A stretch of 64,000 nucleotides of DNA. Origin: Girardia tigrina (taxonomy: Eukaryota). The stretch is from contig MQRK01178987.1 in assembly GCA_001938485.1 (NCBI GenBank), forward strand, positions 3,053 through 67,052, in the 5' to 3' direction. The position numbers are program-made. Shown piece by piece: positions 31,401-34,400 of this stretch (positions are counted from its first letter, which is position 1; each line of letters opens with the position of its first letter).

Positions 31401-34400
31401 CTCACATTTATGTCACAAGAAATGTATAAAAATCCAATGATGACAGTTGTATAATTCCATGGCACGAGACAGAAACGACAGAAATTTGTTAAATTCAATT
31501 CAGTTTGGTAAATTTATCGGATTAATTCAACAAATTATTAAATCGATATTTATTAATTAATATAATATTAATAAAAGTATTGTTTTAAATAGCGAGTAAA
31601 ACAAAATTATTTACTCTTTTATTATATTAAATATTAAATATATATAAATAATAAGAATAAATTAGAAATTTAAATAAAAGATTTATGTTAAAAGTAAACA
31701 AGTGTATAAAATTTGTAAATAGAGATAAATTATATGGAGAAAATGAATTTAAAATATTATTAATAAAAATTTTTTTATAAAAACAACCACGTTTTTCAAG
31801 CATTACCAATACACTAAAAAGAGGAAAATAATTTTTTTTCGAGACATGTACGAAATTTTATACCTAACCCAAAAACGTGGGGCGGATTTCTGAACTACTG
31901 CTATTAGTAACTGCTATTTCCTCTTTACTGCTTTTTAGTAACAATCGATCATTTCTATGCCCCACGTTTTTGATTATGTATAAAATTTCGCACATGTCTA
32001 GAAAAAAATTATTTTCCTCTTTTTAGTGTATTGGTAATGCTTGAAAAACGTGGTTGTTTTTATAAAAAAAATTTTTATTAATAATATTATTTAACTATTT
32101 TTAGTTATCATTTAGGAATTCAAATCTTTCAATTGATTTCGAATAACAGAAATGATAATAAAACTAAAATAACAAATTTTTATTTTAATAAAAGCAAGTT
32201 TAGATGTCTCTCCGATCGCGTCGGACTTGGGACACAGACTGTCCTCCCAGTTGCGGTTGGCGTCGTTCTTGTTCCACGCGCGCTCGATCACCATGGTGAC
32301 GCAATCGACCGGTAATATCGCCTCTATTGACCGTCTGACGTGTTCTGGGAGCTCGAACGATAAATCGTAACACGATTCGACTTTCCGTTTTTTCGATTTG
32401 GATTTCGCGTTCGGAGAAATCGAACAATTGCTCGCATGGGTCGATGTCGCTTCGTTGTAATTCGAGGTCGATTTGATGCGCTTAGTGGTCGGCCGGAGTG
32501 ATTTCTTTATGTCGCACACTGGTGGCGGCTCCGAGGACGAATCGTTGTTGATACTGCTGGATTTCGTGTCTTTCTTGGCGTTGCTGGTGCCGGAGGAGAT
32601 GTAGTTTTCTTGGGACGGTAATTTTTCGAGTTTCGAGTTGAAGATGTTCTCGAGCGTCAGAGTCATGCTGATCAGATCGATTTCCGGAGGATTGAAGATG
32701 TAGCAATTCTGGAACACGAGTCNNNNNNNNNNNNNNNNNNNNNNNNNNNNNNNNNNNNNNNNNNNNNNNNNNTGAAGATGTTCTCGAGCGTCAGAGTCAT
32801 GCTGATCAGATCGATTTCCGGAGGATTGAAGATGTAGCAATTCTGGAACACGAGTCTCACATCGGTGATGCACTCGTCGGCGTTGTAATAGGGTTTCTTG
32901 ATCAATCGATTTTTTATGGTGGTAAAATCCATTGGACAATGCACGATTTTCGGATAATCTGGNATATTGAGCGCCGTATGATCGACCGGATGGAGAAACG
33001 GAAAGGAATATCTGTGTCGCATTAGTTGCGGAAGAATTTTCTTTTTGATGAATTGAAGTCGATTGGTGAGAACACTGGCTGGACGAGGCAGACCGGAATT
33101 TCGATTGCGGAAATTATTTATTTATCGTTTTTGTTGTCGTTATTGACGAGTTCGAGTGAATGGGAACTCATTCGACCAAAATGGGAAATTATCAACCATT
33201 CAATTATCAGACGAAAAGCATAATTAATTTTCAAAAAATGTATTTTGTAAATGTTCCATATTTAAACAATGTACAATATTTAAACAATCTTTTCATTATA
33301 AAAAAAACCAAATTTACATGAAAATTTTTTACTCAAAAAAGTCAGACCGTTCACTAGAATTACAAAAAAATTTTAATCCATTGAAAGAAAACATCGAATT
33401 AATTAAGATAAAATTATTAAGTTCGATATGTTAAATCAAGAAGTTTTATTATAAATGGGCTTTATAATCACTTGAAGAAAATAATATGCAATTTTAATTA
33501 AGAGTGTCTCAATTTCGAGGAAATTGTAATAATAAATAAGAAATATAGGATTTTATGTATATATATTTAATATTTATAAATACTGATAAAAATTTGTGTC
33601 ACTACATCAAGTTTTATTTCAAAATAATGTTTTTGTACGTATTAATTAATATTATTGATTTTTTTTCATAAAGTTAAAATTTTCATAAAGTTAAATTATA
33701 GCATATGCGGTTTATGTAGAGCCGTAAATGTTTTAAAATATTTTATTGTCATCGGAAGCAAGCCTGTATAAAAAAAATTCAGCTCAATTGGATGACTGAA
33801 AGTGGTCGAAAAATCAATCGCAAGATTTGTTCCAGACAGACAGACAAGAAACCAAGCTAAGTAAAACGTGGTAAAAAGGAAGGAAATTTTAAGAAGAGGA
33901 ACACAAGTATTGTAAATAAAATATATAATAAATAGAAAGATCATCTTTACTTATCTGTTGTCGTGTAAAACTACATTTTCATTCACATAAATAAGGAGAA
34001 AAAGATCTAAATTACCCCATCAAAGAAATCTCACAAACGATAAATTTAATATATCCGTAACGAAAATAACAATTTATTTAAATTCCAAAATTAGTATTAT
34101 ATATATTTTTTCTCTGTTAGAATTTCTGATCTGTATACAAATTCCTTTTTTTAATTAAAGATTTGTTTGATATATAAACACTTTGGTTTTGTTTTAATAA
34201 ATCATTATCGTTGGAAATTTTTTTGAATTCAACTCATCGACAGAATTTTAACCATGTATTTCGATCACAACAATGGAAGGTTTTCTTTTCCGCCGAACTT
34301 AAATTATGGATCGAGTGCGGTGCACAAGAATCCACATCTGGATGTGGAACGATCGACCCGGCGATCAAATCAACCAACCAATGTATCGGTTGTCACAATC

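What the first reader, a model, noticed from the sequence alone, without database searches (positions are those of the whole stretch)
32195..33614. Bromodomain gene cassette inside a HINE-like element, with the empty site in the same window
Seen: 31753-33877 is an inverted paralog of 22826-23412 plus a 1.4-kb segment (32202-33607) bounded by CAAGTTT direct repeats (32195-32201, 33608-33614). The empty copy has one CAAGTTT (reverse complement, about 23062-23068). The cassette holds ~430 bp of upstream DNA and an intronless BET BD1-like ORF with an intact acetyl-lysine Asn motif (NCYIFN), and its last ~29 codons come from the repeat. No poly(A) tail or TIRs are visible. Inference: gene capture that could amplify a single-bromodomain chromatin reader. 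The alternative is microhomology deletion in the other copy.
[Added by the scan's program, not by the reader: the finding's places include an assembly gap (unread letters, written N; its length is only estimated) at 32723 to 32772. Whether the letters on both sides are continuous or in frame is not known: test that first.]
Basis: partly seen in the sequence, partly recalled or inferred. Interest (0 to 1): 0.68.

Follow-up and report, generated by a model that had tools for sequence, protein, structure and literature searches.

The report
BET gene fragment inside repeat element
One of two copies of a short repeated element carries a 1.4-kb piece copied from the front third of a BET chromatin-reader gene, which is an ordinary gene-fragment pickup and not a complete new gene.

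Summary
31753-33877 is an inverted copy of 22826-23412. It carries 1,406 extra bases (32202-33607) between two CAAGTTT words, and the other copy has one such word.

The insert is not a whole gene. It matches residues 21-218 of P0151, a 580-aa protein with two bromodomains and an ET domain, at 88-89% identity. No second bromodomain or ET domain lies anywhere in the window.

After the match come 52 GC-rich codons with no relative, then 29 codons and a stop inside the repeat. As assembled there is no in-frame start.

The 50-N gap is flanked by a perfect 84-nt duplicate, the only one of 13 N runs to show this. Both sides align to the same stretch of P0151. This looks like an unmerged contig overlap. 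As written, the two sides are out of frame.

The repeat has HINE-like ends: T-run, subterminal inverted motif, 3' palindrome, no flanking duplication. No autonomous partner or copy number could be tested.

I lean to insertion into this copy (0.6) over deletion in the other (0.25). This is a new member of a known kind, of low to moderate interest.

The parts
22826..23412 (+). Empty copy of the roughly 590-bp HINE-like repeat. It has a single CAAGTTT (reverse complement) at 23062-23068. It lacks 88 nt and 13 nt that the other copy has.
33615..33877 (-). 5' part of the filled copy, matching 22826-23061. It starts with T5 plus the subterminal motif (one mismatch) at the 33877 end.
33608..33614 (+). 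CAAGTTT, the right-hand copy of the 7-bp direct repeat.
33098..33607 (-). Upstream DNA of the insert with no match to P0151. Most of it is AT-rich (33171-33607, 21% GC). It includes a short ATG reading that is out of phase with the bromodomain. It cannot be told whether this is the donor gene's own upstream DNA.
32358..33097 (-). BET-derived coding fragment, given as one part. It equals P0151 residues 21-218: the first bromodomain plus the linker. It is interrupted as written by the 50-N gap and holds one single N.
32723..32772 (.). Assembly gap of 50 N. It was not filled and not bridged.
32639..32722 (.). The 84 nt before the gap, 100% identical to the 84 nt after it (32773-32856). Probably an unmerged contig overlap.
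   Evidence: (D4)
32773..32856 (.). The 84 nt after the gap, duplicate of 32639-32722.
   Evidence: (D4)
32202..32357 (-). Tail of 52 codons in phase with the BET fragment. GC is 57% and third-position GC is 75%. No relative and no domain were found, so its origin is unknown.
32195..32201 (+). CAAGTTT, the left-hand copy of the 7-bp direct repeat. GC-rich foreign DNA abuts it directly.
32112..32201 (-). End of the reading inside the repeat: 29 sense codons plus the stop. GC by codon position is 21/21/14%.
31753..32194 (-). 3' part of the filled copy, matching 23069-23412. 31753-32088 is a near-perfect palindrome of about 335 nt that holds four copies of the CCACGTTTTT motif in alternating orientation.
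   Evidence: (I5, I9)

Best explanation
The 1,406-bp segment is a DNA-level partial duplicate of a divergent BET-family gene. It holds upstream DNA, the first bromodomain and the linker, and it stops before the second bromodomain and the ET domain. It lies inside one resident copy of a roughly 590-bp non-autonomous, HINE-like repeat and points the same way as the element.

I read the 7-bp CAAGTTT duplication as the mark of entry. It could come from repair of a staggered break, or from a template switch primed on microhomology while the element was being copied. Both are the kind of internal gene-fragment acquisition described for rolling-circle elements.

The product is a gene fragment. Its reading runs from the bromodomain through 52 codons of unknown origin into 29 codons of repeat sequence, and as assembled it has no in-frame start. 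It is most likely a pseudogene or at best a chimeric reading, not a working single-bromodomain reader.

Shown: the anatomy, the BET parentage, the truncation, and the duplicated gap flanks. Inferred: the direction of the event (insertion), the mechanism, and the loss of function.
For: Parentage and truncation:
- P0151 has two bromodomains and a BET/ET domain at 451-514.
- The window matches only its residues 21-128 (96/108 identical) and 102-218 (107/121 identical, two 2-residue gaps).
- tblastn of all of P0151 against the whole window finds nothing else beyond cross-matches of its second bromodomain to the same DNA.

Against a processed retrocopy:
- The piece is 5'-complete and 3'-truncated.
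- It has 437 nt of 21%-GC DNA ahead of it and no A-run.

For insertion rather than deletion:
- The 57%-GC, coding-like tail runs right up to the left CAAGTTT, beyond which the 24%-GC repeat starts.
- A later deletion would have to hit the old capture junction within 7 nt.
- Insertion needs one event. Capture in an ancestor, copying, then exact loss needs three.

HINE-like host element:
- T5 plus ACCACGTTTTT at 22826-22841, and the inverse motif at 23365-23374, 38 nt from the 3' end.
- An A7T7 palindrome 12 nt from that end, and no flanking direct repeat at 2 of 2 copies.
- These compare with the features given in PMC4067079 (passages).

No working start:
- The bromodomain frame has two stops just upstream.
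- The first 22 residues of P0151 match none of the three upstream frames convincingly. The best score is 17, reached by 28 of 500 shuffles.
Against: - The empty copy did suffer an internal deletion elsewhere: 88 nt of one palindrome arm, bounded by ATT. So a 7-bp microhomology deletion there is credible.
- No known integration mechanism gives a 7-bp duplication around a segment with no termini.
- The bromodomain looks undamaged. It keeps 35 of 42 columns that are at least 90% conserved among 38 BET first bromodomains, the same number as P0151. Both indels against P0151 are in frame. The tail's GC3 pattern looks coding. So constraint or recent origin cannot be excluded.
- The missing start could be an assembly error in a visibly poor stretch.
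- The organism of P0151 is unknown. It may be an ortholog in another species and not the donor.
- The window holds only two copies of the repeat and no autonomous Helentron, so 'element' rests on structure alone.
Confidence: 0.6

Rival explanations
1. Deletion in the other copy. The common ancestor of both repeat copies already carried the BET fragment. The copy at 22826-23412 then lost it through recombination or end-joining between two CAAGTTT words, which left one word behind. In this case the fragment-bearing element was copied at least once.
For: - One retained repeat unit is the classic scar of microhomology-mediated deletion.
- The empty copy is the more eroded one: an 88-nt loss within the palindrome bounded by ATT, and a 13-nt loss.
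- HINEs are described as internal-deletion derivatives of longer elements (PMC4067079 passages).
- The insert has no transposon ends.
Against: - The deletion's left breakpoint would have to coincide within 7 nt with the point where GC-rich foreign DNA meets the repeat.
- It needs more events than a single insertion.
- No second filled copy is in the window.
Confidence: 0.25
2. Assembly artefact. The fragment and the repeat halves were joined wrongly when a short-read assembler walked through repeated DNA, so the filled element does not exist as drawn.
For: - The segment spans a scaffold gap whose flanks duplicate each other over 84 nt.
- There is a single N in the bromodomain.
- The flanks are repeated DNA.
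Against: - Each junction lies within one gap-free stretch.
- The two junctions carry the same 7-mer in the exact register of the empty site. A random misjoin would not produce that.
- The two sides of the gap agree with one continuous stretch of P0151.
Confidence: 0.07
3. Native gene. 32112-33170 is the true first exon of a resident BET-like gene or a short isoform, and pieces of the repeat merely lie in its flanks.
For: - The reading is open through the tail with a coding-like GC3 pattern.
- Conserved bromodomain columns are kept as well as in P0151.
Against: - No second-bromodomain or ET exon in the 32 kb downstream on that strand, or anywhere in the window.
- No GT at the point where the match to P0151 ends.
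- The flanks on both sides continue one and the same repeat copy in register with the empty copy.
- There is no in-frame start.
Confidence: 0.05
4. Processed retrocopy. An mRNA of the BET gene was reverse-transcribed by a LINE-type enzyme and inserted with a 7-bp target duplication.
For: - The match to P0151 residues 21-218 is uninterrupted.
- Variable-length target duplications fit LINE-type insertion (general knowledge).
- Retroelements abound in the window.
Against: - No poly(A).
- The copy keeps the 5' end and lacks the 3' two-thirds, the reverse of what LINE-type copying gives.
- About 510 nt of unmatched, mostly 21%-GC DNA precede the coding part.
Confidence: 0.03

Closest known systems
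Gene-fragment capture by rolling-circle elements (Helitrons, Helentrons and their non-autonomous HINE/DINE-1 forms)
   Same: - A host gene fragment sits internally between the element's 5' and 3' terminal parts and points the same way.
- The host repeat has a T-run boundary, a subterminal inverted motif and a 3' palindrome, and shows no flanking duplication.
- PMC4067079 (passages) says that HINEs likely capture host sequence and that DINE-1 elements are associated with gene duplicates.
   Different: - No autonomous Helentron, no family census and no second fragment-bearing copy could be examined.
- The fragment is bounded by a clean 7-bp duplication of element sequence, which is not a described hallmark of Helitron capture.
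- The element's 3' part is a palindrome of about 335 nt, far longer than the 5-10-bp palindromes given for HINEs.
BET family proteins (BRD2/3/4/T; Schistosoma mansoni SmBRD3)
   Same: - The bromodomain is of the first-bromodomain type (94.1 against 66.6 bits).
- It keeps the Asn-bearing motif and the PDY tyrosine aligned with BRD4.
- Its near relative P0151 has the full layout of two bromodomains and an ET domain.
   Different: - The window copy has one bromodomain only and no ET domain.
- Both it and P0151 are divergent: 46% mean identity to 38 BET first bromodomains, which share 69% among themselves.
- The W of BRD4's WPF is F in both.
Microhomology-mediated deletion, including exact loss of an insertion between its target duplications
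   Same: Two 7-bp direct repeats in one copy and one in the other, with everything between them missing.
   Different: The direction cannot be read from two copies. Foreign DNA abutting the repeat exactly favours entry over loss.

Membership tests
BET family protein | First bromodomain of BET type with the acetyl-lysine Asn | tested here: met
   Pfam PF00439 E 4.6e-20. BRD4 first bromodomain 94.1 bits against 66.6 for the second, with NCYIFN aligned to NCYIYN. That this Asn anchors acetyl-lysine is recalled knowledge.
BET family protein | Second bromodomain | tested here: not met
   tblastn of P0151 against the whole window finds its residues 251-341 only as a weak cross-match to the same first-bromodomain DNA. 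No Pfam hit in the 202-aa downstream piece at E<=10.
BET family protein | ET (extra-terminal) domain, PF17035 | tested here: not met
   No match to P0151 residues 451-514 in the window. No Pfam hit at E<=10 for the tail. No solved-structure hit at E<=10.
HINE (non-autonomous Helentron), features as given in PMC4067079 passages | Subterminal inverted repeats, a few nt from the 5' end and about 38-60 nt from the 3' end | tested here: met
   CCACGTTTTT at 22832-22841, after T5 and A from 22826. Its inverse is at 23365-23374, 38 nt before 23412. The same layout holds in the other copy: 33862-33871 with one mismatch, and 31787-31796, 34 nt from 31753. 7 of the 8 exact matches in the window lie in the two copies.
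HINE (non-autonomous Helentron), features as given in PMC4067079 passages | Short palindrome 8-35 nt from the 3' end | tested here: inconclusive
   ATAAAAAAATTTTTTTAT at 23383-23400 lies 12 nt from the end, but it is low-complexity A/T. The much larger palindrome of about 335 nt is not part of the definition.
HINE (non-autonomous Helentron), features as given in PMC4067079 passages | T-rich boundaries and no target-site change | tested here: inconclusive
   Both copies begin with TTTTT and end with TT, and the flanks show no direct repeat at 2 of 2 copies. No empty site for the whole element was available.
HINE (non-autonomous Helentron), features as given in PMC4067079 passages | Sequence link to an autonomous Helentron (Rep/helicase/endonuclease) | not testable with these tools
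   None of 36 scanned ORF translations hit a Rep or helicase family. These were a selection from the 41 ORFs of at least 90 aa and the 21 of at least 65 aa in 19-37.5 kb. No eukaryotic genome collection was open.
HINE (non-autonomous Helentron), features as given in PMC4067079 passages | Multi-copy interspersed family | not testable with these tools
   Two copies in 64 kb. The genome-wide number is unknown.
Processed retrocopy | 3' poly(A) and a 3'-complete copy | tested here: not met
   No A-run at 32202 on the gene strand. The copy stops at the equivalent of P0151 residue 218 of 580.
TIR-transposon transduplicate (Pack-type) | Terminal inverted repeats at the ends of the inserted segment | tested here: not met
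   No inverted pair joins 32202... with ...33607 among the 25 longest shown of 147 pairs. The nearest is a 12-nt A/T pair, one arm of which lies outside the insert.

The most novel reading that the evidence does not exclude
A non-autonomous rolling-circle element has picked up the promoter-proximal part and first bromodomain of a lineage-specific BET gene and fused it to a new C-terminus. The missing start would then be an assembly error. The element would spread an expressed, stand-alone acetyl-lysine reader that could compete with the full BET protein for chromatin: a mobile decoy chromatin reader.
Probability: 0.06. Interest if true: 0.6.

Novelty: new member of a known kind. Interest (0 to 1): 0.3.

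Why it matters
Gene fragments carried inside rolling-circle elements are a known source of chimeric transcripts and occasionally of new genes. A filled and an empty copy side by side give a clean view of one acquisition junction.

The practical lesson concerns annotation. The open reading here would be called a single-bromodomain protein by a gene finder. It is in fact a truncated copy of a three-domain BET gene that ends in repeat sequence, and its gap is probably an unmerged overlap.

If the host is a flatworm, which is only hinted at, BET-like proteins are being studied there as drug targets (PMC10726355, listing only). Paralog fragments matter there for target counts.

Tried and rejected
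- **ET-like tail.** I suspected a degenerate ET domain in the 52-codon tail. Pfam at E<=10 found nothing, solved structures at E<=10 found nothing, and the Atlas gave no usable hit. Rejected.
- **Donor of the tail.** Protein searches with the 202-aa downstream piece found none among 136 candidates of 111-354 aa and only P0151 among 676 candidates of 355-2000 aa.
- **Homology of the upstream leader to the start of P0151.** None of the three frames is convincing. So 'a frameshift' is only one possible reading, and loss of the start is another.
- **Helitron-type ends (TC...CTRR, recalled) on the insert.** Not seen when reading the termini.
- **TIRs.** None.
- **RNA genes.** Rfam found no family at gathering score and ARAGORN found no tRNA, so there is no SINE-type origin.
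- **Bacterial promoter and terminator scan.** Uninformative for this sequence.
- **Organism and accession of P0151.** The Atlas holds the same sequence but gives no taxon for it.
- **Literature.** No paper in the held library has Helitron, bromodomain and gene capture together. Helentron with Platyhelminthes gave one unrelated paper.
- **Structure prediction.** Not run, because the sequence evidence for the fold was already decisive.

Full report
**1. The gap (tested first)**

The 50 N at 32723-32772 are flanked by a perfect direct duplicate: 32639-32722 equals 32773-32856, 84 of 84 nt (D4). Of the 13 N runs in the window, this is the only one whose preceding bases repeat after it.

Read on the minus strand, the side above the gap (32773-33097) aligns to residues 21-128 of protein P0151. 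The side below it (32358-32720) aligns to residues 102-218. Both sides therefore encode the same 27-28 residues, and P0151 has that stretch once. The same holds against one BRD4 chain: positions 13-114 for one side and 89-145 for the other.

The simplest reading is that two contig ends overlap by 84 nt and were set apart by a nominal gap. An overlap of k-1 bases is what a de Bruijn assembler would leave, which is my inference. A real tandem duplication cannot be excluded.

As written, the two sides are 134 nt apart in register and fall in different frames (-1 and -3), so the written sequence has no continuous reading. The joined step was left out.

**2. The observation**

CAAGTTT bounds the extra segment on both sides and occurs once at the matching point of the other copy. 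It cannot be lengthened by a base.

The 7-mer is frequent in this AT-rich window: 22 matches against 15.8 +/- 4.2 expected. So only its exact placement is meaningful.

The insert has no terminal inverted repeats, no A-run at the gene's 3' end, and no other copy in the window.

**3. What the insert holds**

The upper side of the gap is a bromodomain (Pfam E 4.6e-20) of the BET first-bromodomain type. Against BRD4 the first bromodomain scores 94.1 bits and the second 66.6. NCYIFN and PDY align with BRD4's NCYIYN and PDY.

A full HMMER pass over 1.84 billion representatives gave 8,539 hits at E<=1e-3. Among the 150 listed, none exceeded 47% identity.

The word-indexed search among longer proteins found P0151, 580 aa, from an unnamed source. 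It is 89% identical over 96% of the query. One fungal BET protein at 41% was the only other hit (2 proteins at E<=1e-10 among 52 candidates).

P0151 is a complete BET protein: two bromodomains and the ET domain at 451-514, with three stretches matching BRD4. The window matches only its residues 21-218. tblastn of all of P0151 against all 64 kb finds no second bromodomain and no ET domain.

Beyond residue 218 the window reads 52 further codons (32202-32357). Their GC is 57% and their third-position GC is 75%, a coding-like pattern in phase with the fragment. They have no relative or domain in any search. There is no GT where the match ends, so this is not a simple read-through of a donor site.

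The reading then crosses the junction on a codon boundary and runs 29 codons to a stop in the repeat. GC by codon position there is 21/21/14%.

Upstream of the first matched residue, the bromodomain frame has two stops. A short ATG reading lies in another frame. The first 22 residues of P0151 match none of the three frames convincingly: the best local score is 17, reached by 28 of 500 shuffles.

Relative to P0151, the copy therefore has three defects:
- a lost or out-of-phase start, counted as one break whose nature is undecided;
- a 3' truncation;
- the gap.

The longest ATG-started reading in the bromodomain frame begins inside the domain (ORF 32672-33022).

**4. Is the bromodomain decaying?**

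Not visibly. I examined 42 alignment columns that are at least 90% conserved among 38 BET first bromodomains. Forty were extracted, and two were dropped by my own id filter. The window copy keeps 35 of the 42 and P0151 keeps 35, with 34 shared.

Both are equally far from the other BETs, at 46% mean identity, while those share 69% among themselves. So P0151 and the fragment belong to one divergent BET lineage.

Both indels against P0151 are two codons long. These numbers are too small to show constraint.

**5. The host repeat**

On the strand of the empty copy, the repeat begins TTTTT-A-CCACGTTTTT at 22826-22841. It carries the inverse motif at 23365-23374, 38 nt before its end at 23412. An 18-nt A/T palindrome lies 12 nt from that end.

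The filled copy has the same layout on the minus strand, so the BET fragment points the same way as the element. The flanks of the two copies differ and show no direct repeat.

These features resemble what PMC4067079 gives for HINEs, of which I read the listing and 12 passages:
- subterminal inverted repeats a few nt from the 5' end and 38-60 nt from the 3' end;
- a short 3' palindrome;
- T-rich boundaries;
- no target change.

That paper also says HINEs probably capture host sequence and that DINE-1 is linked with gene duplicates.

Two things differ or were not met. The 3' part is a near-perfect palindrome of about 335 nt (folding energy -126.8 kcal/mol, z -31). No Rep/helicase ORF is in the window among 36 ORF translations scanned, which were a selection. 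'HINE-like' is therefore a structural resemblance, not membership.

**6. Insertion or deletion**

For deletion in the empty copy:
- That copy demonstrably lost 88 nt of one palindrome arm between ATT words, and another 13 nt.
- The insert has no ends of its own.
- One retained 7-mer is the usual scar of microhomology repair.

For insertion:
- The GC-rich, coding-like tail abuts the left 7-mer to the base, and the AT-rich repeat resumes beyond it. A later deletion would have to strike the old capture junction within 7 nt.
- Insertion is one event, against three for capture, copying and exact loss.

I put insertion at 0.6 and deletion at 0.25.

A processed retrocopy is unlikely. The copy keeps the 5' end, lacks the 3' end, has no poly(A), and has about 510 nt of unmatched upstream DNA. 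A misjoin is unlikely because both junctions keep the register of the empty site.

**7. Where it comes from**

This is unknown.

Among solved structures, the second bromodomain of P0151 is closest to 7amc_A. That match scores 131 bits, against about 87 for human single-domain chains, and 62 of 108 residues are identical by my own count. The listing of PMC10726355 (title and start of abstract only) ties this entry to Schistosoma mansoni SmBRD3. This hints at a flatworm and proves nothing.

**8. Novelty**

Gene fragments inside rolling-circle elements are known in large numbers. That statement rests on the PMC4067079 passages for bats and maize.

I found no paper in the held library that combines Helitron, bromodomain and gene capture. 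That is the only basis for saying this particular cargo is not in print.

Verdict: a real feature of an ordinary kind, with an annotation trap attached.

**9. Left unchecked**

- genome-wide copy counts;
- the donor locus and its introns;
- read support for the gap, the junctions and the start;
- expression;
- the supplements of PMC4067079.

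Noticed in passing
22440-22831 and 23404-23785: The empty repeat copy is bracketed by two direct copies of a roughly 390-nt sequence (92.6% over 392 columns; parts at 96-99%, D1-D3). 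The first ends exactly at the element's T-run. The second starts exactly at the element's 3' end and itself ends with the same ...CATGCATTTTTA with no element after it. This could be a tandem duplication, a second element family inserted in tandem, or a rolling-circle by-product. It is unexplained.
   Followed up: partly
31753-32088: The 3' part of the filled copy is a near-perfect palindrome of about 335 nt (DNA fold -126.8 kcal/mol, z -31, 0 of 100 shuffles as good). It carries four CCACGTTTTT motifs in alternating orientation. The other copy has lost 88 nt of one arm.
   Followed up: partly
40193-43745 (minus strand): This is the virus-like stretch, a BEL/Pao-type LTR retroelement. Its coding region lies in five ORF pieces with Pfam hits to DUF7047, RVT_3/RNase H, integrase zinc-binding and core domains, RVT_1 and retroviral protease. 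Three N runs lie within it. I only described it and did not study it further.
   Followed up: no
37481-38921 (minus strand): A hAT-type transposase remnant in two ORFs: Dimer_Tnp_hAT at E 1e-08, and DUF4371 at E 5e-05, below its Pfam cut-off.
   Followed up: no
18138-18455 (minus strand): An exon of a nucleosome assembly protein (NAP, E 3.8e-31). It lies in a 51%-GC island where long ORFs in other frames and on the other strand overlap it.
   Followed up: no
63177-63566 (+) and 48281-48586 (-): Two related ORFs. The first has a weak GIY-YIG match (E 0.0014, below the cut-off). Their translations resemble each other by eye. They may be endonuclease remnants of Penelope-like elements, a label I recall rather than tested.
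   Followed up: no
58973-59422 (-) and 57565-57921 (-): A Peptidase_M24 C-terminal exon (E 3.6e-16), and next to it a retrotransposon gag-like ORF (E 4.6e-05, just under the cut-off).
   Followed up: no
32202-32357 (minus strand): 52 codons in phase with the BET fragment, with 75% GC at third positions and no relative in any search. They could be a second captured fragment, or donor sequence that the P0151 model lacks.
   Followed up: yes
21956-21965 (minus strand): One further exact copy of the CCACGTTTTT motif lies outside the two repeat copies. It may mark a third, degraded element end. blastn at E<=1e-5 shows no wider match.
   Followed up: no
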